In this document: positions 17,238 to 62,314 of the stretch, piece by piece | Numbering within the stretch: the stretch's first letter is position 1 | How the letters are laid out: every line of letters starts with the position of its first letter | Assembly: GCF_011045215.1 (NCBI RefSeq) | Contig: NZ_CP049201.1 | Origin: Escherichia coli | Lineage (GTDB): Bacteria; Pseudomonadota; Gammaproteobacteria; Enterobacterales; Enterobacteriaceae | Length of the DNA stretch: 64,000 nucleotides | Reading direction: 5' to 3' (one strand) | Translations under genes and position numbers: made by a program | Notes under the pieces: model-generated | Told to the model about the DNA's origin: nothing | Databases searched by the model: none | What the model saw: only the letters and a program-made list of their open reading frames with translations

Positions 17238-17420
17238 ATGCCGGATGCGACGCTTGCCGCGTCTTATCCGGCCTACGGGATTGCACATGTAGAGCGGATA
17301 AAGCGTTCACGCCGCATCCGCCAGTGGCGCGGTGCAATTGCCGGATGCGACGCTTGCCGCGTCTTATCCGGCCTACGGGATTGCACATGTAGTGCGGATA
17401 AGGCTTCACGCCGCATCCGC
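17238..17420. repeat. BIME/REP cluster (two near-identical ~85-bp units)
   Basis: Unit gccggatgcgacgcttgccgcgtcttatccggcctacgggattgcacatgtag...gcggataa..cacgccgcatccgc present twice between eutG and eutH. Confidence 0.7.
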
Positions 17421-20172: not shown

Positions 20173-20194
20173 AAAACCCGGCGCGGGGCCGGGT
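20173..20194 (-). terminator. Intrinsic terminator (minus-strand orientation)
   Basis: On minus strand reads ACCCGGCCCCGCGCCGGGTTTT: GC stem CCCGGC/GCCGGG followed by U-run, 7 nt after stop of the 20201-20761 gene; identical copy at 21822-21843. Confidence 0.6.
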
Positions 20195-20200
20195 GAACTA

Positions 20201-20761
20201 TCATTCAGGGAACAAGTTGATTTGAAGCAAACTGCCAATGTATTTACCAGTGCTTTTAATTTTTCGCTTTGATGGCTTACACGAATTCAGGTTGACACCA
20301 GCCTGGCTAGATATTGGCTTGTATTGCCGCTCCGCCAGTACGATCAGGTCTGCCGCGTCTTTTAGCTTTCCATCGTTAGCCAGTTCCAATGCTCGATCCG
20401 CCATTTGCCCGCATTGTTGAATCAGCTTAAGTTGCGATACCTCCAGTCGCAATTGCTGGATTCGTTCTACCACTTTCGCCCTAATGCGCTTAGTTTCACG
20501 CATTCCCATTCTTAATGCCTGGTTGCCAGTAAGTGAGTAAACCTCTTTTTCTTTCCTGAAGTTTGCGGCTTTACCGTCAGCTTGGACGCGCATTTTATGC
20601 GCTTCCAAGAATTCGCCCTCCAATTCATCCCTGATCTTCGCGTTGAATCTGTCGTTCTTGAGTTCATTTAACCCTTCCGCCTTGCGGATCTGGTTGATTA
20701 ACTCCAACAATTCATCACTGCGGATACGCCACTCGCTATCAACCTGTACCAAGTCAAACAT
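20201..20761 (-). CDS. Hypothetical phage protein (186 aa from ATG with GGGAG RBS; coiled-coil, possibly regulatory)
   Basis: ORF with good RBS upstream of internal ATG at 20761 (track start 20854 is TTG); no confidently recognised domain. Confidence 0.55.
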   Translation of the reverse strand: MFDLVQVDSEWRIRSDELLELINQIRKAEGLNELKNDRFNAKIRDELEGEFLEAHKMRVQADGKAANFRKEKEVYSLTGNQALRMGMRETKRIRAKVVERIQQLRLEVSQLKLIQQCGQMADRALELANDGKLKDAADLIVLAERQYKPISSQAGVNLNSCKPSKRKIKSTGKYIGSLLQINLFPE

Positions 20762-20924
20762 GTTGTTGCTCCCGTTTTGCTGCCATAGGGCAACGGCTCG
20801 CCAGCCTTTATCACCTCCTTTAGTTGTTGCGATTCTTAACTGAATGGTTATCAAAACGCTGCGTTAATATCATTGATATGTATCAAATTTGTTTTGTGAC
20901 GCGACAATGCCTTGTGAATATCAA

Positions 20925-20949
20925 TAAAAAACCCAGCGCTATGGCTGGG
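20925..20949 (-). terminator. Intrinsic terminator (minus-strand orientation)
   Basis: Minus strand CCCAGCcatagcGCTGGG followed by UUUUUU, 45 nt downstream of stop of 20995-21723 gene. Confidence 0.5.
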
Positions 20950-20994
20950 CTTCTCTTGATGGCTGGTTTTGTAGCTAATCGTTGGCTTTAAGGG

Positions 20995-21723
20995 TTAAGC
21001 AACAATATTAATCCCGCTCCTTGTCGCTGCCTCTTTGGCAATTTTCCCCTCGTCCTCCAGTTTAGCTAACGCCTTGTACATCCAGTGGCGGCCCGGTGCG
21101 CCATGCAGCTTGCCATCTTTGCCGATCTTACCGAACGCATGTAACGCCAAATCGTCGATAGTCCCCTTGTATCCGCCTTGCTCCTTAAGCCATTGCTCAA
21201 GCTGTTCTACTTTGAATTTTGCCGGACGTCCGCCAGCCGCTTTTTGTTGTTTAGCTGGTTCTTCTGCAATATCGCTTTTGTTGTTTAAGTCCGTCATGAC
21301 TGGTTCTCCTACAATAGCGTCGCCCTTGGTCTCGATTTGTTGATTAACTGGTTTGTCTACAATATCGATTTTGTTGTTTAGCTGGTTTTTCAACATATCA
21401 ATCTCAGCCTTTAGCGCCTCGTTTTCTCTGGCTAGTTCTTCGCAACGCTTGATAAATTTTTGTTCCATGCCGTCCGGGCTATCAACGTGCGCCGTACCCA
21501 TTACGATCTTCCCGTTGCTATCGAAGATGACAGCTTGCCAACCGACTGCGGCGAGCATTTTAAACACATCATCAGCGGTCTTGTTTGTTGTATCGCGACG
21601 CCCTTTAAACTTGTGGCTAGCAGCGCCTTTGCCTTTGAAGCCCATTGCCTCAGCGACATCTTGCCGCGTCATCTTGCGAGCGCGCTTGTTCATGCCTAAC
21701 TCAACCCAATCCATGTATTCCAT
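20995..21723 (-). CDS. Hypothetical phage protein with internal tandem peptide repeats (242 aa)
   Basis: ORF with GAGGT RBS; DNA and protein contain imperfect tandem repeats (LNNKIDIVDKPVNQQ / LNNKSDIAEEPAKQQ); basic N-terminal region possibly DNA-binding. Confidence 0.6.
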   Translation of the reverse strand: MEYMDWVELGMNKRARKMTRQDVAEAMGFKGKGAASHKFKGRRDTTNKTADDVFKMLAAVGWQAVIFDSNGKIVMGTAHVDSPDGMEQKFIKRCEELARENEALKAEIDMLKNQLNNKIDIVDKPVNQQIETKGDAIVGEPVMTDLNNKSDIAEEPAKQQKAAGGRPAKFKVEQLEQWLKEQGGYKGTIDDLALHAFGKIGKDGKLHGAPGRHWMYKALAKLEDEGKIAKEAATRSGINIVA

Positions 21724-21821
21724 ACATTACCTCATTTTGTCGCTAAACGTTTTGCTTTCTAATTTATCAACAAAAAAGCGGGTGATGGTAGCCGCTTTGA
21801 TGGGGAAGTTGACAGGGATCA

Positions 21822-21843
21822 AAAACCCGGCGCGGGGCCGGGT
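21822..21843 (-). terminator. Intrinsic terminator (minus-strand orientation), identical copy of 20173-20194
   Basis: Same 22-bp sequence aaaacccggcgcggggccgggt; 18 nt downstream of stop of AlpA-like gene 21861-22091. Confidence 0.6.
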
Positions 21844-21860
21844 ATTAGCAAGTTAGATGA

Positions 21861-22091
21861 TTACTGGGTATCGCTGTCAGAAAGTAGTCCAATTGATTTA
21901 AAGAATTTCATCACATCCTGATAGCGATACATGACGCCCCGCCCGGTTCCCAGCACATCAACAGGGTCGGGGAATGGAGTTCCGTTCTGTTCCCATTTCT
22001 TACGCCACGAATAAAACGTTCCCCTGCTAATTCCGCCCAGCATCCGGCAGATGGCAGGGCGGCTAAGAAGGATTACTTCATTTTTATCCAT
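21861..22091 (-). CDS. AlpA-family phage transcriptional regulator / excisionase-like HTH protein (76 aa)
   Basis: Motif LSRPAICRMLGGISRGTFYSWRKK...FPDPV typical of AlpA/Xis-type HTH; GGGAGA RBS. Confidence 0.6.
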   Translation of the reverse strand: MDKNEVILLSRPAICRMLGGISRGTFYSWRKKWEQNGTPFPDPVDVLGTGRGVMYRYQDVMKFFKSIGLLSDSDTQ

Positions 22092-22110
22092 TGTTTAATC
22101 TCCCGTGTGT

Positions 22111-22299
22111 TTATTTTGCGTAGATTAAGGCAAATGCTCTTTTGGCTTTGCTTAGTTCGTATTCGCGTTTTTCTATGATTGCCATCAGTTCTTGTGCGGT
22201 GGCTGGCACGCCCGCTCTTATCAGCGCAATCTTAGTATCCATAGCGCACACTCTTTCACGCACCATATCGAAGATAATTTCCGCTCTATCGTGTTTCAT
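22111..22299 (-). CDS. Small hypothetical protein (62 aa)
   Basis: ORF with strong GAGGTGA RBS 5 nt upstream of ATG; 19 bp upstream of AlpA-like gene, likely co-transcribed. Confidence 0.5.
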   Translation of the reverse strand: MKHDRAEIIFDMVRERVCAMDTKIALIRAGVPATAQELMAIIEKREYELSKAKRAFALIYAK

Positions 22300-22648
22300 G
22301 ATTTCACCTCATATTTGTTGCTAAACCTTGTAAACCCTTGTTTGACTACAAAATACACCTGGTTAAGCGACTGATAAAATGATTTAGGTCAATTTATTGG
22401 TTGATGATTTATGTCTGATTGGATTTGTCTACAAATGGCAGGTTAGTCAACAAATGATGAAACCAGGGAATGGCGGTTATAATGTCAGCGGGGATTGTGA
22501 GAAAGGCCCGGGTAGGTTGCTAACTGCCTGGGCCTTTATTTTTGGCGCGTGTACGTGAAATCTGGAAAATTTGCAGGGTAGTTGTTGAGGGATTTTTCGC
22601 GTAGGAGCGTGAAGGGTCCGCCAGTCATCGCCCTGACGTAGCGGTGAA

Positions 22649-23050
22649 TTACTTGCGAGGCTCACCCATCGGCCAGGCACCTTCATTGCGACGATAACCA
22701 ATCCGGTACTCTTCCGGCAGCGGCAAGCCCTGCTCACGATATGGACGCAGATCGAAGCCAAAAACAGGATCGTCGTCGTAGGCGAGGAATAGCCCGGCAG
22801 GCTCTGCCACGCGTTCGATAATCAGTTCCCCATCTTCAACGAAGAAGATCAGATTATCGCGAAAGTCCGTTACCTCACTGACGTGATAACATTCGGCATG
22901 TGCGTCCAGCCAGGCTTCTCGGTATTCCTGAATCTCGGCTTCTGACCATGTTGAAACAGGACGCTCCCAAATTCCCAGGCTGGATTTGCCCTGGCGGGAG
23001 AATAATTTTGCCTCTTTGCTCTGCTCTGGTTTTCTGTTTAAAAAGCTCAT
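22649..23050 (-). CDS. Hypothetical protein (133 aa)
   Basis: ORF with AAGGAGAA RBS; no recognised domain. Confidence 0.55.
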   Translation of the reverse strand: MSFLNRKPEQSKEAKLFSRQGKSSLGIWERPVSTWSEAEIQEYREAWLDAHAECYHVSEVTDFRDNLIFFVEDGELIIERVAEPAGLFLAYDDDPVFGFDLRPYREQGLPLPEEYRIGYRRNEGAWPMGEPRK

Positions 23051-23186
23051 TATTCTTCTCCTTTGAACGGATTGTTCTTGCTCTCTAATAACTTAGCGCG
23101 ACCCAGTAACGTCCGGGCAAGCGCCTCCGCCTTCCTTAGCCTAAGCCCTGCGTCTTCTGCGTCCAGATCTACATTCCTGATAGCCT

Positions 23187-23450
23187 CTACAGCCTGCTCC
23201 GCTGCGTCCGGGCGTGAATCCACTTAAATATGCCGATATGCTCACGAAAGTCTGGATGCTCATATTGCCAGCGGCAGATTGTTCTGAAGCTCGGCATGTC
23301 AGGCATGTTGCCAATCTCTCTGAGACTATGGCCTTCAGCTACCAGCAAGCAGATTTCTTCAGCGATAGCGACCCCATACTTAGCGCTTTTTCTGCTTAAA
23401 CTTGTGACATCAACAGGTAAGTTATTGATTTCTTTATCATCACCCTTCAT
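23187..23450 (-). CDS. Small HTH protein resembling the DNA-binding domain of phage terminase small subunits (87 aa)
   Basis: Motif AEGHSLREIGNMPDMPSFRTICRWQYEHPDFRE resembles TerS-type HTH; GGGGGTAA RBS; family assignment is from memory and tentative. Confidence 0.4.
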   Translation of the reverse strand: MKGDDKEINNLPVDVTSLSRKSAKYGVAIAEEICLLVAEGHSLREIGNMPDMPSFRTICRWQYEHPDFREHIGIFKWIHARTQRSRL

Positions 23451-23525
23451 AATTACCCCCGAATTGATAGCGAATTGATAGCGAATTACCCCGAATTACC
23501 CCCGAATTACCCCCGAATCACCATC
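23451..23525. repeat. Tandem array of about 6.5 copies of an 11-bp unit (AATTACCCC(C)G x4 and AATTGATAGCG x2)
   Basis: Directly visible: aattaccccc g aattgatagc g aattgatagc g aattacccc g aattaccccc g aattaccccc g aatcaccatc, exactly filling the gap between the 93-aa gene stop and the 87-aa gene start. Confidence 0.85.
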
Positions 23526-23527
23526 AT

Positions 23528-23809
23528 TTAACCCTCGCCTACGTCTGCGTCGATGCTTGCTAACTGGCTGTGTAGATCGCGTTCAATCATTTTTACCTTT
23601 TTCACAAAATCCCTTTCCTCGGCGGTGGCGGGCGCGCCCTGGGCTATGTTTTTCGTGAGGTCGTGGAAAGTGCCGAAAACATAAAGGGAGAACAGCCTTA
23701 ATTGTTGCCGCTTCATTGGCAAATCACTGTTGCTATGTTTGATCTCAGCGACGCCTTTCGAAATAACACGGGCCATCCCATGACAAATTCTTAACGTAAG
23801 CGCAGACAT
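23528..23809 (-). CDS. Hypothetical protein (93 aa)
   Basis: ORF with GGGGAG RBS; no recognised domain. Confidence 0.5.
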   Translation of the reverse strand: MSALTLRICHGMARVISKGVAEIKHSNSDLPMKRQQLRLFSLYVFGTFHDLTKNIAQGAPATAEERDFVKKVKMIERDLHSQLASIDADVGEG

Positions 23810-23930
23810 GATATTTACTCCCCGACTGGTATAATGAACGTGGTTTTAAACGTTGCTATTTGCTAACCATTTAATCTGTTAACTCAATTTCGCATTGTTG
23901 GCCCGGCACGAACACCGGGCTTTTCTTTAC

Positions 23931-24272
23931 CTATTCGAAATAGCTTCCAATATCCGGTGTCCGGGTATCAGTTTTCCGGGTCGGCTCGAAGTACGATTCC
24001 AGATCCGGCGTTTTCGGCCCACGCTGGGCGTTGGCGGCGGGTTGCTTTTCTTCTGGCTGTTCCGGCTGTTTACTACCAAATCGGCGCTCCAGTTGGTCCA
24101 TCAGCACTACCATCATTTCCTGGACCAGCTTTTCATCGGCTTTATCAAGGTTCTCCAATACCATCGCCATCCCTTTGCGGAATTTAAGCTCAGCGTCGTC
24201 CGGTTCCGGTGCTGATTCGTTTGCTTTAACTGCCAGGGCGATCCGGCGTTTTGCTTCATCCAAAAAATTCAT
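23931..24272 (-). CDS. Hypothetical acidic protein ending in repeated SYFE motif (113 aa)
   Basis: ORF with GGGGGAA RBS overlapping stop of upstream gene; C-terminus ...DLESYFEPTRKTDTRTPDIGSYFE. Confidence 0.5.
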   Translation of the reverse strand: MNFLDEAKRRIALAVKANESAPEPDDAELKFRKGMAMVLENLDKADEKLVQEMMVVLMDQLERRFGSKQPEQPEEKQPAANAQRGPKTPDLESYFEPTRKTDTRTPDIGSYFE

Positions 24273-24277
24273 TTTGT

Positions 24278-24721
24278 TTATTCCCCCATGTGGAAATAGT
24301 CATCTAAGCGGCGATTAAACTCGTCGCTGCCATCGAAATATTCACGGATACTTTTATTGACCAGATCATCACCGTCGAAATACTGGCGCGTGAAATCGTC
24401 CAATTCCCCATCGAAGTATTGACGTGTGAAATCGTCTAATTCCCCTTCAAAATATTGACGCGCATCAGGCGCTCTGTTTGGCGCTGTAGCAATCTCAGAT
24501 TGATTGCCCTGTAACTTATCGACGTTTGCTAAATACACGCCCAGTGAGCTGTTTGTTCCCATTACCGCAAGCATTTTCCGGCGATCTGCCATGTTCGGCG
24601 CGAGCGATGATAATTGAGCTTTAATTTTGTCCACTTCCTGATTAACAATACGGTCAATCAGTGGTTGATTCGTGCGAATAATTTCCTGTGCCAACTGGCG
24701 AATATATTCTTTGCGTGTCAT
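24278..24721 (-). CDS. Hypothetical protein with C-terminal tandem RQYF(D/E)GELDDFT repeats (147 aa)
   Basis: ORF with GGAGAT RBS; encoded by about 3.5 tandem 36-bp DNA repeats near 24330-24465. Confidence 0.55.
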   Translation of the reverse strand: MTRKEYIRQLAQEIIRTNQPLIDRIVNQEVDKIKAQLSSLAPNMADRRKMLAVMGTNSSLGVYLANVDKLQGNQSEIATAPNRAPDARQYFEGELDDFTRQYFDGELDDFTRQYFDGDDLVNKSIREYFDGSDEFNRRLDDYFHMGE

Positions 24722-24739
24722 TTCTTATCTCCGTTCATC

Positions 24740-25123
24740 TCATTTCTGTAAAAAACCCATACCGTGGCCCAGGCGATTTGAAATTTTCCCGGCAAGCATC
24801 CGGCGAATATGTTTTTCGTTGATGATGTCGTGAGTGACCGGATCTTCACCTTTCATACATTCCGGCATCTGGTCAAACAATACGGAAGCGCCTTCATCAA
24901 TAATCTCAGTTAAGACTGCTGGCAGCATATTAATGATGCGTTCTGCTTCGTCGTTCATTGCTTTATCGAACGCTTTTTTATCCATTGCTTCGGCGGATGG
25001 TTTGTAATTGTCGCCAGTCAGGTTAAGGTAAGTGTTGTTTGGGTGATACATGGCATTCACTCCTTTTACTTTGATTGTTGCGATTTCTTTGTTTTTGTTA
25101 ATTGTGGTGCCTTTGACTTTCAT
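24740..25123 (-). CDS. Hypothetical protein (127 aa)
   Basis: ATG overlaps stop of HNH gene (ATGA), suggesting translational coupling; no recognised domain. Confidence 0.5.
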   Translation of the reverse strand: MKVKGTTINKNKEIATIKVKGVNAMYHPNNTYLNLTGDNYKPSAEAMDKKAFDKAMNDEAERIINMLPAVLTEIIDEGASVLFDQMPECMKGEDPVTHDIINEKHIRRMLAGKISNRLGHGMGFLQK

Positions 25124-25539
25124 GCTGCTTCTTCCTTCAATAATTGTGGCAATTTGCCTGTTAGTTCGATTTCTTCATTAATAGATGCAAGTAACTGTCT
25201 CAGTTTGCGATGTAATAGCTGGTGACGCTCTCTCGGCATTTTTACCAGGTTGCTTAAGCGGTTATTCTGCGGATCGTAGTCCCGGTGATGGATATCATAT
25301 TTTCGCTCATCGTAAACACCGTAGCACCATAACCAGGCAGCCTTTTCTATTGTCATGCAGGTACGTTTTCCGTTGCTTAAACAAATGGTTATACTCAGGT
25401 GACCGCGATGTTTTTCGTTTAAGCTGCCTTTAATTACCTGGCCTGTGCTGCGGTTGTGAAATAAACCAGTTTCAGGGTCGTAGTGATATTTCTGTCGTAA
25501 TATATCAACTGATAACCGTAGTCTTGTAAGATTGTCCAT
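25120..25539 (-). CDS. HNH homing-type endonuclease (139 aa)
   Basis: Motif YDIHHRDYDPQNNRLSNLVKMPRERHQ (HH...N...N...H) typical of phage HNH nucleases; GAGGTAG RBS. Confidence 0.7.
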   Translation of the reverse strand: MDNLTRLRLSVDILRQKYHYDPETGLFHNRSTGQVIKGSLNEKHRGHLSITICLSNGKRTCMTIEKAAWLWCYGVYDERKYDIHHRDYDPQNNRLSNLVKMPRERHQLLHRKLRQLLASINEEIELTGKLPQLLKEEAA

Positions 25540-25571
25540 GATGTTCTACCTCAATGTGATTGCTGTGTTAA

Positions 25572-25757
25572 TTATCTTTCTTCTTGTGGCCTATTCAGCC
25601 AGGCCTCGATCTCGCTACGCCAGAATAATAAACGACAATTTCGCGGCGTAAATGGTTGGGGTATTGTCTTATCTTTTAATAGCCATCTTCGAATCGTTCT
25701 TGTTGATACCCCCGCTATTAATGCGAAAGCTCGCAGATCTATAACTTCATCTCTCAT
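25572..25757 (-). CDS. AlpA-like HTH regulator (61 aa from ATG with GAGGT RBS)
   Basis: Sequence LIAGVSTRTIRRWLLKDKTIPQPF...WRSEIEAWL matches AlpA/Xis-type HTH pattern; track ORF start 25862 is a TTG extension. Confidence 0.55.
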   Translation of the reverse strand: MRDEVIDLRAFALIAGVSTRTIRRWLLKDKTIPQPFTPRNCRLLFWRSEIEAWLNRPQEER

Positions 25758-26537
25758 GTTCTTACCTCGATTAAAAAGGACCGCCCCCAGGGAAAGAAGA
25801 AAGAGGAAAGAGGAAAGAGGAAAAACTTCCTGGAGGCGGGTAATTCGGATTCCTTGAATCAATATCCCATGTGATACTTAATATTATAAAGGGCGGCGGG
25901 CTATGTCGCTATTTTTGCCATAGTGTGACACCATTAATTTATTAACAAAAAGTGCTATTTATTAAATCTTTTTTCGGCAGGTGCAAGAAAAATAATTGCG
26001 ACACGGTAGGGTAGCGGGCGATAATAATCATGTAAGGAGTAGCCACCTTACGCCTCCAAATGTGATCGATAAAAATAATAGTCTCAATTCTTTCTCCCGC
26101 TTCTCGGCGGTTTTTTTGCCTGCAATCACACATCAAAAAAACACATCGAATTGATATGCCTTTAAAACGCAATATAACGCATTTTGACGGCCTTAATTTT
26201 TGCCTATCCACTCGGAAGCGTAAGCCTGTTTTGATTCGTCTGGCGTGGAATGGTGCGGCGGTAATATCAGATCTCAGCGTTCTGTGTGGTGGGATGGAAT
26301 AGCCTGGCAGGATCTGCGTGTGATTTCATTCATCCAACCTTGGATGAATGGTCCGATCTGGTCAGTAGTCCGGCACAAATAAAAAGCGCCTGCGGGCGTA
26401 GCAGACGCTTTGTGTACAGGCTTATCAGTACGGGATGTGCACGAATGATTATACCACCCTCAGAAAAACGTTTGCTTTTGCACTTAAACGGATAAGTGGT
26501 ATTTCTTGGTCTTCATTGGTTTTAGCTCACCATAGGC

Positions 26538-26765
26538 TCATTTAGGTGCGCCCCTGTCGATAATTCGGTACATGTTCTCGGTATATCTCCCGTTAATCAC
26601 CGTTCTGGTAACAACAATCACACCGTTTTCCTCCAGAAAGGCAATGGCCCGCTTCACTCCCTGGCGGCTTACACCGGATAGCTGCGCCAGCCTGTCAATG
26701 GAGATGTTGTATTTGTCCGGCTGGCTTGTCAGGATCTGGAATACCGCTCGTGCTGTTTTCGTCAT
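26538..26765 (-). CDS. Small winged-helix DNA-binding protein (75 aa), candidate regulator
   Basis: Sequence ISIDRLAQLSGVSRQGVKRAIAFLEENGVIV has HTH character; divergent from the plus-strand cassette; RBS weak. Confidence 0.45.
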   Translation of the reverse strand: MTKTARAVFQILTSQPDKYNISIDRLAQLSGVSRQGVKRAIAFLEENGVIVVTRTVINGRYTENMYRIIDRGAPK

Positions 26766-27037
26766 GGCAAAAACTCATTGAAATTGGATACCCTTAGAAC
26801 GCTCTCAAACGCTCCGTAATGCGATGAGAATTTTACCTAAGCAAGTGTAGCTCTTTATTAGTTTTATGATGCCGTAGGCCGATAGAAGGTGCGCTCTCTG
26901 AAGTTTCATTGTCTATCAGTGGTGGGTAATGCTGCCTTTACTATTGGCGTCAAGAAAATCACTGGTGTAGATTGGGCGAATAGTTTACTATTCAAACAAG
27001 GCACAATGGCCTTAGCGGATTGATGTCAGGAGATACC

Positions 27038-27385
27038 ATGTCAAAAATAGTTACTTTGTTTGCGACTAAGCGAGAAGGGAAATCCCTTTCTGTGCGCACT
27101 CGTAAGCCAAAAGCTATGACTGGCTTGCGTAAAACAAATCGTCTGACGCATCTTGACGCGTTAGCGTATCGACTAGGATACCAGTTGGTGCGCGGTAAAA
27201 GTGTCATGTTTCGCTACACTGCTACTCTCGATCACGAAGAAAACAAAGTGATGAATGCGGCCTCGCCTATGGCTGTACCACGAGTAAAAAAAATGACGTT
27301 CACACAAGCGTGTGATTTATCAAAAGATTTATTCGATTCACGAGAAGAACGCTTAAAGAGTGTAAGCTTTGATGGTCCAGAATGA
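27038..27385 (+). CDS. Basic 115-aa protein, candidate partner (antitoxin or regulator) of downstream YafO-like gene
   Basis: ATG at 27038 preceded by AGGAGA RBS; stop overlaps start of next gene by 14 nt; basic N-terminus and acidic C-terminus; no recognised family. Confidence 0.5.
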   Translation: MSKIVTLFATKREGKSLSVRTRKPKAMTGLRKTNRLTHLDALAYRLGYQLVRGKSVMFRYTATLDHEENKVMNAASPMAVPRVKKMTFTQACDLSKDLFDSREERLKSVSFDGPE

Positions 27386-27887
27386 ATTTATTGGTAAGGT
27401 CTACAGTGATAACAAGTTTAAAACAAACGATGAATTAAAGAGCTTTAAGGATTCGTTTATTTATCATTGGAGATATGGACATCATCCTGATTTTGGAAAG
27501 GATACTCTTTTCCATAAACCCCCGTGTGTATATCCTATCCATTTACGTAAAGTCCATGTAAATATTGGTCTTTATACCAATCAGTACGGCTATAGCGGGA
27601 CAGAACAATGCTGGGATGACTGGTCTACTGGTCGTTATGGTCCCGGTGGTTTCGAAAAAGTTACCCCTACATCTGATGCTTATCTTATATACGCTGTATG
27701 TAAAAATAGAAATGCTGGCGTGTTAGACTTCTGGTTTCCTCCCGCACACAAAAACGCTGAGTTCGAATCCTCTGTACAGTTTGTGGCTGAGATGGCTGAT
27801 AAGTTTTATGAGTCTATCAAGGCGGACCCGATGCCGCGCGATCAGAATCCTTGGCATACGGGGTATATAGTTAAAAAACCAGCCTGA
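27372..27887 (+). CDS. YafO-family toxin-like protein (171 aa)
   Basis: Motifs F-I-Y-H-W-R-Y-G...PDFGKDTLF, YPIHLRKVHVN and SDAYLIYAV line up with recalled YafO motifs (FISYKRDG...PDIFGRDALY, ERVAHIHLAN, DEAHLVYCQG); similarity judged from memory, not computed. Confidence 0.45.
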   Translation: MVQNEFIGKVYSDNKFKTNDELKSFKDSFIYHWRYGHHPDFGKDTLFHKPPCVYPIHLRKVHVNIGLYTNQYGYSGTEQCWDDWSTGRYGPGGFEKVTPTSDAYLIYAVCKNRNAGVLDFWFPPAHKNAEFESSVQFVAEMADKFYESIKADPMPRDQNPWHTGYIVKKPA

Positions 27888-28438
27888 TCCACGCAATACT
27901 GATTGTTTTTGGCCTTGTATGGTGTGGTCTGATTTGAGGCAAAATTATTTAATCCCTTAAAAAACTAACTTCAAAAGACTAAAACCAGGGGGATGGTCCC
28001 TCTCGCTCCGCTCCAGGTACCATCCCTGTCGGGATGGGTTTATTGTAGAGTTAAAATTAATTACTCACATCGTCACACCTTGCGAAAGTTTTGCTCAATT
28101 ATCATTCAAACATAGCACAAAAAATATTCGATTTAGTTAGTGTGCACTGACTTTTTTATCAATTTACTTTCATTCGAAAGTCATGGGTTAAATATTAATC
28201 ATCTGGCTGTGGCACGCATGGATTCACCGAGGGTATTTTGGACCATTTGGTCAAAATTCATAAGTACATGATTTCATGGTGATTTATTTTTCTGTATCTT
28301 GCTTTCATTCGAAAGTGGAAACGAAGAATTGGCAATTTATTGATTCAGATCATTGACATTGCATATTTGTGGCGGTTGTCACGGTTGTTTTTTGAGCGCT
28401 TCAACCGTCGATATTGAGTATAAACCCGGCCTTATAGT

Positions 28439-29644
28439 TCACGGTTCAAGTGGATTACCGTCACCAGCCAATATTGAATCAATAGCGTCGGCGTAATCCT
28501 GCATCATTGCTCGCCGTTGCTTCAGGTAGGCCGCCTGGTTATAAACGCCGCGCACACCTTTCGGGACGTGGGCCAATTGGATTTCGATCCAGTCTGGTGA
28601 GTATCTGCCAGACTCATTAAGCGCCGTTGAAAAGGTGGTCCGCCAGCCATGACCAGTGGCAATGGATTTATAGCCGATCCTCTCAAGCGCCTTCAGTATC
28701 GCGCTGGCTGAAAGTGGCTTATCCATGAATCGACCAGGGAAGACGAAAGCACTGTATCCGCTCCTTGTAAACTGGTCCTGTAATAGCTCCACCGCCTGCC
28801 GTGATAGCGGGACCACATGCGGGCGGCGGGCCTTCATGACTTCAGCGGGCAATGTGATTGTTGCGTCCTCCAGGTTTATCCATTCCCAACGGCACAAACG
28901 CAGTTCTGCGGTCCTTAATGCCGTTAATATAAGCAAACGTATTGCCGTCTGAATCTGGACGCTCCCGGCCCTCTCAAGGGCTTTGTAGAAGGCCGGAATT
29001 TCACTAATCGGTATCCACGCGTTGTGACCAGGTCGGCGGGCCTTCAGTGCCGTATCAAGATCTGCAACCGGATTCCTCGTTACCAGTTCGGTGATAACGG
29101 CAAACTTGAAGATCTCACCGATGCGCTGGCGTAGCTTGCGGGCCTGCTCCGGTGCGGTACGTTCTTTCTTCTGGAGTAATGCCAGCACGTCACGGGCGGT
29201 TATATCGACAATCGACCGCTTGCCAAGTACCGGATAGACGTCTTTTTCTAGGGCCGATCTGACCTGTTTTGCATAGGATTCCGACCACCCTCCAACCCTA
29301 GTAGCAAACCAGTCTTCCGCCACCTTCTTAAATCCTGCCGCCATGTTGAGCGCATCAATGGCTTTTTCCTTGCGGGCTTGTTCCACTGGGTTAATTCCAT
29401 TGGCAATAAGGGATCTGCTCTCCGTGGCGCGCCTGCGTGCTTCTTTGAGTGTGATTAGCGGGTAAACACCAATAGCCTGCAAAAACTCTCGTTTATTCAA
29501 CCAATACCTGAATCGCCAGTATTTCGAACCGTTGGGATGCACCAGCAAAAACAGCCCCGGCGTCAGTGAATCGGTGAGTTTATAGGGCTTGTCCTGCGGC
29601 TGTGCGGCGTCTATGGCCTTTGCTGTGAGTGGTGTCTTGCTCAA
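28439..29644 (-). CDS. intZ: Tyrosine-type site-specific integrase (prophage integrase)
   Basis: 401-aa ORF with phage integrase features (N-terminal arm-binding domain, C-terminal catalytic region with ...HGWRTT...); sits at the element end beside eutB as intZ does in E. coli K-12; start appears to be TTG. Confidence 0.8.
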   Translation of the reverse strand: MSKTPLTAKAIDAAQPQDKPYKLTDSLTPGLFLLVHPNGSKYWRFRYWLNKREFLQAIGVYPLITLKEARRRATESRSLIANGINPVEQARKEKAIDALNMAAGFKKVAEDWFATRVGGWSESYAKQVRSALEKDVYPVLGKRSIVDITARDVLALLQKKERTAPEQARKLRQRIGEIFKFAVITELVTRNPVADLDTALKARRPGHNAWIPISEIPAFYKALERAGSVQIQTAIRLLILTALRTAELRLCRWEWINLEDATITLPAEVMKARRPHVVPLSRQAVELLQDQFTRSGYSAFVFPGRFMDKPLSASAILKALERIGYKSIATGHGWRTTFSTALNESGRYSPDWIEIQLAHVPKGVRGVYNQAAYLKQRRAMMQDYADAIDSILAGDGNPLEP

Positions 29645-29832
29645 AACCGGATACCTTGATTTAACGACTGGATAACCCCGATCATGTATCCGGCGCGTTC
29701 GGTTGCGTTCGGCAGGATAAGTAACGGGCGTATTAAGTGGAACACCTTACAGGACAAGGGCTAACGATGAAATAGAATTGTTTGCAGGCTGTGAGAAATG
29801 TTAATCGTCACTTCTTCCTGAGGGAACGACTT

Positions 29833-61715: not shown

Positions 61716-61775
61716 ATCGCAGATAGCAAAAAAGCGCCTTTAGGGCGCTTTTTTACATTGGTGGGTCGTGCAGGA
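61716..61775. repeat. Duplicated copy of the lysV 3-prime end plus its terminator (60-bp direct repeat; second copy at 61872-61931 is the native one)
   Basis: atcgcagatagcaaaaaagcgcctttagggcgcttttttacattggtgggtcgtgcagga occurs twice 156 bp apart; the last 17 nt are the tRNA-Lys acceptor/T-arm end. Confidence 0.75.
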
Positions 61776-61914
61776 TGACTCGCTTCGCTCGCCCTTCGGG
61801 CCGTCGCCGCGAGCGGCTCCGTTGTTTCGCTACGCTCAACTCAAACCTGCTGCAGGTTCGAATCTTTGAGTATCGCAGATAGCAAAAAAGCGCCTTTAGG
61901 GCGCTTTTTTACAT

Positions 61915-61990
61915 TGGTGGGTCGTGCAGGATTCGAACCTGCGACCAATTGATTAAAAGTCAACTGCTCTACCAACTGAGCTAACGACCC
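61915..61990 (-). tRNA. lysV: tRNA-Lys (anticodon UUU)
   Basis: Reverse complement gives GGGTCGTTAGCTCAGTTGGTAGAGCAGTTGACTTTTAATCAATTGGTCGCAGGTTCGAATCCTGCACGACCCACCA, 76 nt with CCA; last gene of val-val-val-lys tRNA operon. Confidence 0.9.
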
Positions 61991-61994
61991 GAAG

Positions 61995-62070
61995 TGGTGG
62001 GTGATGACGGGATCGAACCGCCGACCCCCTCCTTGTAAGGGAGGTGCTCTCCCAGCTGAGCTAATCACCC
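61995..62070 (-). tRNA. valY: tRNA-Val (anticodon UAC)
   Basis: Reverse complement gives GGGTGATTAGCTCAGCTGGGAGAGCACCTCCCTTACAAGGAGGGGGTCGGCGGTTCGATCCCGTCATCACCCACCA; third of three identical copies in transcription order. Confidence 0.85.
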
Positions 62071-62116
62071 ACTTCGGTATTTCACATTTTTACAAGAAAT
62101 TTAGCTGGTGAGAAAG

Positions 62117-62192
62117 TGGTGGGTGATGACGGGATCGAACCGCCGACCCCCTCCTTGTAAGGGAGGTGCTCTCCCAGCTGAGCTAATCACCC
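62117..62192 (-). tRNA. valX: tRNA-Val (anticodon UAC)
   Basis: Identical 76-nt tRNA-Val sequence; middle copy. Confidence 0.85.
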
Positions 62193-62238
62193 ACTTCGGT
62201 ATTTCACATTTTTACAAGAAATTTAGCTGGTGAGAAAG

Positions 62239-62314
62239 TGGTGGGTGATGACGGGATCGAACCGCCGACCCCCTCCTTGTAAGGGAGGTGCTCTCCCAGC
62301 TGAGCTAATCACCC
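62239..62314 (-). tRNA. valU: tRNA-Val (anticodon UAC)
   Basis: Identical 76-nt tRNA-Val sequence; promoter-proximal copy, divergent from gltX. Confidence 0.85.

What the first reader, a model, noticed from the sequence alone, without database searches (positions are those of the whole stretch)
25863..26537. About 675-bp ORF-poor stretch with a perfect 11-bp-arm palindrome
The longest non-coding stretch in the element lies between the AlpA/HNH operon promoter and the small wHTH gene. It contains CATTCATCCAA-cc-TTGGATGAATG at 26327-26350 and terminator-like hairpins near 26095-26118 and 26385-26420. The only ORFs here are low-complexity or start at GTG/TTG with no RBS. It could hold an operator, a replication origin or a non-coding RNA.
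Basis: seen in the sequence. Interest (0 to 1): 0.45.

Follow-up and report, generated by a model that had tools for sequence, protein, structure and literature searches.

The report
Unannotated small RNA gene beside alpA
The "empty" 675-bp stretch of this small E. coli island (inserted between eutA and eutB) holds a conserved, unannotated small-RNA gene pointing away from the island's alpA operon, plus the wreck of a lost gene, a variable palindrome and a terminator; it is probably the island's control region, not a replication origin.

Summary

The stretch is mosaic, not uniformly empty:
- 25996-26117 (+): a promoter (TTGCGA-18-GATAAT), a 5' hairpin, an unpaired conserved core and a terminator. 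This ~87-nt sRNA-like unit is found in 30 of 32 related loci searched. Compensatory changes occur in both hairpins. It has no Rfam, phage or IMG/VR match.
- 26140-26230: the remnant of the 3' end of a minus-strand gene that is intact (150 aa) in some relatives.
- 26230-26290: a nearly invariant 60 nt that is not consistently coding in any frame. Its role is unknown.
- 26306-26361: the palindrome module, flanked by GATCTG repeats. Relatives carry 0, 1 or 2 copies, with arms that differ but often stay complementary.
- 26383-26411 (-): a strong terminator after the wHTH gene.

Two relatives carry iteron arrays next to wHTH Rep-like genes elsewhere, so an origin here is unlikely.

Best reading: this is the control region of a satellite-like island, with an sRNA gene divergent from an alpA operon that itself has a leader terminator. 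The sRNA's target is unknown and nothing is shown experimentally. I rate it a new member of a known kind.

The parts
25996..26025 (+). Sigma-70-type promoter of the small RNA: TTGCGA, 18-nt spacer, GATAAT
   Evidence: 9 of 12 consensus matches. The -35 TTGC(G/A)N and the -10 GATAAT are kept at the same spacing in all related loci that carry the unit.
26031..26117 (+). Candidate small RNA of about 87 nt. It has a 5' hairpin (26032-26051), an unpaired core (CCAAAUGUGAUCGAUAAAAAUAAUAG...) and a terminator hairpin (26097-26110) followed by U7.
   Evidence: Covariance model R1 finds one copy in each of 30 of the 32 sources searched, at 49-110 bits; the window copy scores 53.5 bits. Covariation: 85.5% of cells paired against 25-63% for slid controls, and 16 double-change cells, a value reached by 0 of 500 shuffles. 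Every variant folds as 5' hairpin plus terminator. The fold energy of the window copy alone is not special, z = -0.23.
26140..26230 (-). Remnant of the 3' end of a minus-strand gene. It is intact as a 150-aa hypothetical protein in relatives L004, L012, L017 and L034. The shared C-terminus is ..QMHxQKLxPxExVIxxLNGIxF.
   Evidence: In the window the frame has no start and reads through the normal stop. In L003-type relatives it is cut by a stop (alignment).
26230..26290 (.). Nearly invariant 60-nt block (GATTCGTCTGGCGTGGAATGGTGCGGCGGTAATATCAGATCTCAGCGTTCTGTGTGGTGG) containing a GATC site. Function unknown.
   Evidence: It is invariant or nearly so in 24 distinct sequences whose flanks differ by 20-30%. 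It is not consistently coding: stops occur in L001 and L009, and a 1-nt G indel lies just downstream. There is no special fold on either strand. GC skew is +0.41, so the minus-strand RNA would be C-rich.
26306..26361 (.). Palindrome module. Order: GGATCTG, then CGTGTGATTT, then the palindrome CATTCATCCAA-cc-TTGGATGAATG (26327-26350), then GGTCCGATCTG.
   Evidence: Relatives keep a palindrome here with different inner triplets, for example CATTGGTCCAgattTGGACCAATG and CCCCAAATTTGGGG. 71% of cells are paired; there are 9 double-change cells, a value reached by 6 of 500 shuffles. The module is absent in L009 and L018 and occurs as two tandem copies in L003. There is no strand bias in wobble-type cells.
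26383..26411 (-). Intrinsic terminator downstream of the 75-aa wHTH gene (26538-26765, minus strand): 11-bp stem followed by UUUUUAUUU. On the + strand the same hairpin is followed by UUUGUGU.
   Evidence: z = -3.15 on the minus strand, -1.28 on the plus strand. The weak Rfam OrzO-P match at 26382-26449 (23.3 bits against a gathering score of 60, E = 0.61) is driven mostly by this terminator.
25863..25962 (-). Probable alpA promoter region. There is a TATAAT on the minus strand at 25884-25889 with a poor -35, and a conserved upstream box AATAGCACTTTTTGTTAATAA.
   Evidence: Read by eye from the sequences. A TATAAT or TAAAAT sits at the same place in all leader types. The consensus scan did not call it.
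25770..25845 (-). alpA leader hairpin (CCGCCUCCAGG ... CCUGGGGGCGG) with a large CU-rich loop. It is followed by CCUUUUU and then the Shine-Dalgarno sequence GAGGU. This lies just outside the finding's coordinates.
   Evidence: Seven leader types all form a 9-12-bp GC-rich stem followed by a U-run. The stem sequences differ (z from -1.1 to -4.6).

Best explanation
The stretch is the control region of a small satellite-like island of about 9.6 kb. The island carries intZ, a YafO-like toxin pair, a 75-aa wHTH gene, alpA, an HNH gene and a truncated terS-like gene.

Its one well-supported functional unit is an unannotated sRNA gene of about 87 nt on the + strand (26031-26117). It has its own sigma-70 promoter and is transcribed away from the alpA operon promoter about 110 bp to its left.

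Inferred mechanism: the sRNA acts as an RNA regulator of the island's switch, in the manner of the immunity or antisense RNAs of P4, P1/P7 and lambda. It is exactly antisense to any minus-strand transcript that enters from the wHTH side. In relatives with the intact 150-aa gene it converges on that gene's 3' end. It would therefore limit read-through into alpA, which is additionally guarded by a leader terminator. Its conserved unpaired core may instead pair with a helper-phage or host RNA.

The rest of the stretch consists of a decayed gene end, a nearly invariant 60-nt block of unknown role, an optional palindrome module (an RNA/DNA hairpin or a protein site), and the terminator of the wHTH gene.

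What is shown: sequence anatomy, conservation and covariation. What is inferred: that the RNA is transcribed, and what it targets.
For: - Promoter plus terminator are called by the scan.
- The unit is present once per locus in 30 of 32 sources searched, always next to alpA.
- At least seven different 5'-stem sequences all pair, for example AAGG/CCUU, GAGGAU/AUCCUC, CGAGGG/CCCUCG and AACACUA/UAGUGUU.
- There is a compensatory CCAGC/GCUGG change in the terminator, and the covariation statistics are well above the shuffled and slid controls.
- The -35 and -10 hexamers are conserved while the spacer sequence varies.
- No reading frame is conserved across the stretch. The protein search returned only 8 heterogeneous E. 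coli gene calls of 72-156 aa covering 24-59% of the query.
- The alpA leader terminator is conserved with different stems.
Against: - There is no transcript evidence of any kind.
- The window copy is one of the two weakest family members (53.5 bits; L032 scores 49.4). It has only a 5-bp terminator stem, and its fold is not better than shuffles.
- No significant complementarity was found between the sRNA and the alpA leader in 9 loci (z from -0.8 to +1.1).
- No outstanding target was found within the island.
- The A4 alignment was fitted to the model's structure, which inflates pairing.
- The sequences are closely related E. coli elements, so the shuffle controls overstate significance.
- The conserved core could be a DNA site rather than a seed. 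In most relatives it is a perfect CRP half-site, AAATGTGATCTA.
Confidence: 0.6

Rival explanations
1. The stretch is mostly decaying DNA. A regulator gene was lost by deletion, and what looks conserved is recent common ancestry and recombination among closely related E. coli islands. The hairpins are leftover terminators with no present regulatory role.
For: 26140-26230 is demonstrably a gene remnant. The region is mosaic, with 2-3 haplotype blocks that recombine freely. The palindrome module is dispensable, with 0-2 copies, and is degenerate in several relatives. The family is restricted to about 3-4% of E. coli genomes and is absent from species-representative genomes.
Against: The sRNA unit keeps its promoter hexamers, 5' hairpin and terminator through many compensatory changes while neighbouring sequence diverges by 20-30%. 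The 60-nt block is invariant even in L007, which sits at another chromosomal site, and nearly so in the plasmid form L009.
Confidence: 0.2
2. The palindrome, alone or with the nearly invariant block and its GATC sites, is a protein-binding operator or recombination/packaging site. It would be bound by the 75-aa wHTH protein, by AlpA or by a helper-phage protein, and the sRNA-like unit would be secondary.
For: The palindrome is perfect and far beyond chance. The outer CATT/AATG and central CCAA..TTGG are conserved while the inner triplets co-vary symmetrically. There is no strand bias in wobble-type cells, as expected for a DNA-level site. Three GATCT motifs lie 42-43 bp apart (sequence).
Against: Relatives with about 95% identical wHTH genes carry different palindromes (window, L001, L004, L019). 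The module is missing in L009 and L018, which keep the rest. No second copy of the palindrome exists near either promoter.
Confidence: 0.25
3. The stretch contains the island's replication origin.
For: It is the longest gene-free stretch. It holds a palindrome and several GATC sites. The adjacent 75-aa protein resembles the wHTH of replication initiators (phrog_270, HTH_36). A related 9-kb element exists as a circular plasmid record.
Against: There are no iterons or AT-rich repeats here. In L007 and L009 the iteron arrays (4 x 23-26 nt) lie next to wHTH Rep-like genes, several hundred bp outside the conserved block. L009 replicates without the palindrome.
Confidence: 0.05
4. The region is a type I toxin-antitoxin locus of the Zor/Orz type: a small toxic peptide plus an sRNA antitoxin.
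For: There is a weak Rfam OrzO-P match on the minus strand at 26382-26449. Small ORFs lie nearby, such as the 48-aa ORF at 26156-26302.
Against: The match scores 23.3 bits against a gathering score of 60, with E = 0.61, and rests mostly on the terminator. The small ORFs are not hydrophobic toxin-like peptides (read by eye). They are also interrupted in relatives, by a TAG at codon 16 in the L003 type and by frameshifts.
Confidence: 0.03

Closest known systems
RNA-based immunity of phage satellites and phages (P4 CI RNA; P1/P7 C4 RNA; N15 CA RNA). Recalled from the literature, not tested here beyond Rfam.
   Same: A short structured RNA is encoded next to the promoter of the early/activator operon of a satellite-like integrative element. 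That operon has a terminator in its leader, so control by premature termination is plausible.
   Different: No Rfam match to C4 or any other family at E <= 10. This RNA has its own divergent promoter rather than being processed from the leader. No complementarity to the alpA leader was detected.
Lambda OOP RNA / P22 sar (short antisense RNAs converging on a regulator gene). Recalled from the literature.
   Same: In L004-type relatives the sRNA converges on the 3' end of a 150-aa gene. Its U-run ends 27 nt from that gene's stop codon. The sRNA is perfectly antisense to any read-through transcript.
   Different: In the window the convergent gene is reduced to a remnant. No overlap with coding sequence was seen. 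There is no sequence similarity.
PICI / cfPICI / PICMI-type phage satellites of Gram-negative bacteria
   Same: The element has a tyrosine integrase at one end, an alpA-led operon and terS-like and HNH genes, is small, and sits at a fixed chromosomal site.
   Different: No pri-rep gene or capsid genes are present in the window copy. An sRNA gene beside alpA is not, to my knowledge, a described feature of these families. Helper dependence was not tested.
CPZ-55 cryptic prophage of E. coli K-12
   Same: Same insertion site (eutA|eutB) and a homologous intZ integrase.
   Different: K-12 CPZ-55 has neither the sRNA unit nor the conserved block. There were no BLAST matches to 25770-26800 and no R1 match.
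OrzO/OrzP antitoxin sRNAs (Rfam RF02083)
   Same: A small hairpin followed by a terminator, on the minus strand at 26382-26449.
   Different: The score is 23.3 bits against a gathering score of 60. It is read here as the wHTH gene terminator.

Membership tests
Rfam families (all 4227, including C4 and OrzO-P) | Covariance-model score at or above the family's gathering threshold | tested here: not met
   Nothing in 25500-27100 reaches gathering. The best match is OrzO-P at 23.3 bits against 60 (E = 0.61). There is no hit at all on the + strand sRNA unit.
Bacterial trans- or cis-acting sRNA gene (generic) | Own promoter and Rho-independent terminator bracketing 50-300 nt without a conserved ORF | tested here: met
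   TTGCGA-18-GATAAT, an 87-nt body, then hairpin plus U7. All are conserved in relatives.
Bacterial trans- or cis-acting sRNA gene (generic) | Secondary structure supported by compensatory changes | tested here: met
   Six of 12 pairs show double changes. 85.5% of cells are paired against at most 63% for slid controls. Caveats: the alignment was fitted to the model and the sequences are closely related.
Bacterial trans- or cis-acting sRNA gene (generic) | Detected transcript with defined ends | not testable with these tools
   No expression data are available.
Bacterial trans- or cis-acting sRNA gene (generic) | Identified base-pairing target | tested here: inconclusive
   There is no significant pairing with the alpA leader. 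The only recurrent hit is 11-12 nt, with G-U allowed, to + strand GGUGGGAUGAA about 170 nt downstream, seen in three relatives. Host and helper genomes could not be scanned.
Iteron-type replication origin | Array of at least 3 direct repeats of about 17-26 bp next to a Rep gene | tested here: not met
   Searches find none in 25500-27100. Relatives have such arrays elsewhere.
Intrinsic (Rho-independent) terminator | GC-rich stem-loop followed by a U-run | tested here: met
   One search reports 26097-26110 (+) and 26411-26383 (-). One search gives z = -3.15 for the latter.
CRP binding site | Two half-sites, TGTGA-N6-TCACA | tested here: not met
   Only the left half matches: AAATGTGATCTA in relatives and AAATGTGATCGA in the window. 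The right half matches 1 of 5 positions (read by eye from the sequences).
Dimeric-repressor operator | Palindrome whose sequence tracks the cognate regulator and overlaps or flanks a regulated promoter | tested here: inconclusive
   The palindrome is real. It does not track the wHTH allele. It lies about 300 bp from the sRNA promoter and about 440 bp from the alpA promoter. No binding data exist.

The most novel reading that the evidence does not exclude
This family of small eut-site islands may run its lysogeny-like switch with an RNA rather than a protein repressor. On this reading a new class of about 90-nt sRNA sits divergent from alpA and, together with the alpA leader terminator, the nearly invariant GATC-containing block and the variable hairpin module, decides whether the island is activated, possibly by sensing a helper-phage RNA. 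It would be an RNA-immunity system unrelated in sequence to P4 CI or P1 C4.
Probability: 0.2. Interest if true: 0.65.

Novelty: new member of a known kind. Interest (0 to 1): 0.42.

Why it matters
If the RNA is real, it is an unannotated regulator sitting at the decision point (alpA) of a family of small satellite-like islands. These islands occur in roughly 3-4% of complete E. coli genomes, including ATCC 8739 and some O157:H7 strains, and it is annotated in none of them.

It would add an RNA layer to the control of Gram-negative satellites. It would also give a simple handle, by deleting or overexpressing one 90-nt RNA, for testing how such minimal islands are induced.

It also corrects annotation. 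Several sporadic "hypothetical protein" calls over this stretch are probably spurious.

Tried and rejected
- **Rfam:** both gathering and permissive scans gave nothing usable.
- **Phage and viral collections:** BLAST of the region against 50,697 phage records found no match. A 40-nt core query returned only chance-level 17-20-nt hits. IMG/VR pattern scans found nothing.
- **Species-representative genomes:** two pattern scans returned only two unrelated chance hits.
- **Protein coding:**
  - The + frames carry stops in L003 and L009.
  - The minus frame carries a TGA in L001.
  - 1-nt and 2-nt indels separate the variants.
  - The database search found only 8 heterogeneous E. coli gene calls and no Pfam domain.
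- **sRNA pairing with the alpA leader:** z was about 0 in 9 loci.
- **Target scan inside the island:** no standout site.
- **Structure in the nearly invariant block:** z = +0.13 on the + strand and +1.29 on the - strand. RNAalifold proposed a G-U-rich hairpin, but the only variation is transitions, which are uninformative.
- **43-bp tandem periodicity of the GATCT units:** not detected by TRF.
- **Strand of the palindrome from wobble asymmetry:** none.
- **Literature:** searches for CP-933Y, for CPZ-55 with satellite or sRNA, and for cfPICI or eutB turned up no paper that, from its title or abstract, bears on this region.
- **One script timed out** and was rerun in lighter form.

Full report
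**Context.** The window is E. coli-like chromosome, about 97% identical to K-12 across the eut genes. A small element of about 9.6 kb (about 20194-29780) is inserted between eutA and eutB, the site of the K-12 cryptic prophage CPZ-55.

Its genes are:
- intZ (28439-29644, minus strand);
- a YafO-like toxin pair on the + strand (27020-27887);
- a 75-aa wHTH gene (26538-26765, minus strand; HTH_11/HTH_36; resembles the wHTH of replication initiators);
- a minus-strand operon led by an AlpA-like gene (25572-25760), followed by an HNH_3 gene and a truncated Sf6-type terS-like gene.

The finding is the 675-bp gap between the wHTH gene and alpA.

**Observation.** The palindrome is exact: arms 26327-26337 and 26340-26350, 11 nt, with a 2-nt spacer. 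Perfect inverted repeats of this size occur 6 times in the window, against 0.18 expected. Both terminator-like hairpins are called by the scan.

**Relatives.** No complete E. coli genome has the whole stretch. Parts of it occur in 185-211 of 5,426 genomes, nearly all at the eut site, and are annotated "none" or with sporadic hypothetical proteins. I used 33 related loci:
- 15 genome loci;
- one 9-kb circular plasmid record (CP057168);
- 16 metagenome contigs;
- one O157:H7 locus.

The block is absent from phage records, IMG/VR and species-representative genomes.

**The small RNA unit.** Alignment shows that 25996-26117 is a conserved unit with four parts:
- a -35 TTGC(G/A)N and a -10 GATAAT;
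- a hairpin starting at the predicted +1;
- a conserved unpaired core (CAAAAUGUGAUCU..AUAACUACAACGAU in most relatives; CCAAAUGUGAUCGAUAAAAAUAAUAG in the window);
- a CCCGC/GCGGG terminator followed by U7-9.

The 5' stem has at least seven different sequences, all of which pair. The terminator shows one CCAGC/GCUGG double change.

A covariance model built from 16 copies finds one copy in each of 30 of the 32 sources searched. It finds none in K-12 CPZ-55 or L007, and no second copy in the window. On the model-based alignment:
- 85.5% of cells pair, against 25-63% when partners are slid;
- six of 12 pairs show double changes;
- there are 16 double-change cells, a value reached by 0 of 500 shuffles.

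The caveats are that the alignment is fitted to the model, the sequences are related, and the window copy is one of the two weakest (53.5 bits; L032 scores 49.4) with an unremarkable fold energy. There is no Rfam match.

**The rest of the stretch.**
- *Gene remnant.* 26140-26230 is homologous to the 3' end of a minus-strand 150-aa gene that is intact in L004, L012, L017 and the O157:H7 locus. There the sRNA converges on it.
- *Invariant block.* 26230-26290 is nearly invariant in 24 distinct sequences, yet no frame is consistently open. It has no special fold, and a protein search finds only eight heterogeneous gene calls. Its role is unexplained. By eye it contains a GATC next to a possible extended -10 (TGATATTAC) on the minus strand, and the minus-strand RNA would be C-rich. 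These are leads only.
- *Palindrome module.* It lies between GATCTG repeats and is present in 0, 1 or 2 copies. Its arms differ among relatives and often remain complementary. The statistics are modest (71% of cells paired; 9 double-change cells, reached by 6 of 500 shuffles), and there is no strand bias. It does not track the wHTH allele.
- *wHTH terminator.* 26383-26411 is a strong minus-strand terminator after the wHTH gene. The weak OrzO-P hit rests mostly on it.

**Origin.** No iterons occur here. L007 and the circular L009 have four-copy iteron arrays beside wHTH Rep-like genes outside the block, and L009 lacks the palindrome. An origin in this stretch is unlikely.

**Mechanism.** The sRNA promoter and the probable alpA promoter are back to back. 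The alpA leader carries a conserved GC-rich hairpin with a CU-rich loop. That hairpin is followed by CUUUUU and the Shine-Dalgarno sequence, with different stems in different relatives. This layout suggests a switch in which alpA expression is limited by termination and an RNA takes part.

The target is not identified. There is no pairing with the leader and no clear site in the island. The sRNA is antisense to any read-through from the wHTH side. Its core could instead be a seed for a helper or host RNA, or a DNA site, since it matches a CRP half-site.

I put 0.6 on "real sRNA gene within a control region". My confidence in any specific mechanism is much lower.

**Novelty.** This is a new member of a known kind: an sRNA gene in a mobile element's regulatory region. 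It is unannotated in the records examined, and my searches found no description of it.

Noticed in passing
window 25770-25845 (minus strand): The alpA leader has a GC-rich 11-bp hairpin with a ~29-38-nt CU-rich loop (depending on the fold taken). CCUUUUU and the Shine-Dalgarno sequence follow directly. All seven leader types from relatives form an equivalent hairpin with different stems. It looks like a leader terminator/attenuator or an SD-sequestering switch.
   Followed up: partly
window 25791-25823: A 7-nt tandem repeat, GGAAAGA x 4.7. It forms the loop of the alpA leader hairpin (CU-rich on the mRNA strand).
   Followed up: no
window 26056-26067; relatives, for example L003 8003-8014: The conserved core of the sRNA unit is a perfect CRP half-site (AAATGTGATCTA) in most relatives. 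It also contains a GATC. The right half-site is absent.
   Followed up: partly
L003 8237, L034 3501, L009 2955 (equivalent to window ~26285-26297): The sRNA segment just 5' of its terminator (UUCAUUUCACU) is complementary over 11-12 nt, with G-U allowed, to + strand GGUGGGAUGAA at the end of the nearly invariant block in three relatives. In the window the match is weaker.
   Followed up: partly
L009 (CP057168.1, whole record): A 9,003-bp circular 'plasmid' record carries the same alpA-HNH operon, sRNA unit and conserved block. It has a serine recombinase instead of intZ, and four 26-nt iterons at 1905-2018. It may be an autonomous or excised form of this island family.
   Followed up: partly
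L007 3001-3222 and 3889-3991: A copy of the conserved block and palindrome, without the sRNA unit, sits at a different chromosomal site beside ychJ/purU. Four 23-nt iterons and an HTH_36 Rep-like gene lie next to it, flanked by IS fragments.
   Followed up: partly
window 26766-26860: The sequence upstream of the wHTH gene (..AACGCTCTCAAACGCTCCGTAATGCG..TAAGCAAGTGTAGC) recurs in relatives that lack the wHTH gene (L003, L007, L016 and others). This suggests the wHTH gene is a cassette inserted into a conserved backbone.
   Followed up: no
window 17292-17373; 61759-62314: Rfam gathering-level hits: naRNA4 (REP-derived, 65 bits), and RtT RNA plus four tRNA genes (three identical in score, and one more). 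These are ordinary chromosomal features.
   Followed up: no
window 27020-27887: A two-gene + strand cassette. The 172-aa product matches YafO_toxin only weakly (21.5 bits, below the cutoff of 25) but matches phrog_1651 strongly (E = 9e-43). The upstream 121-aa partner has no family match.
   Followed up: no
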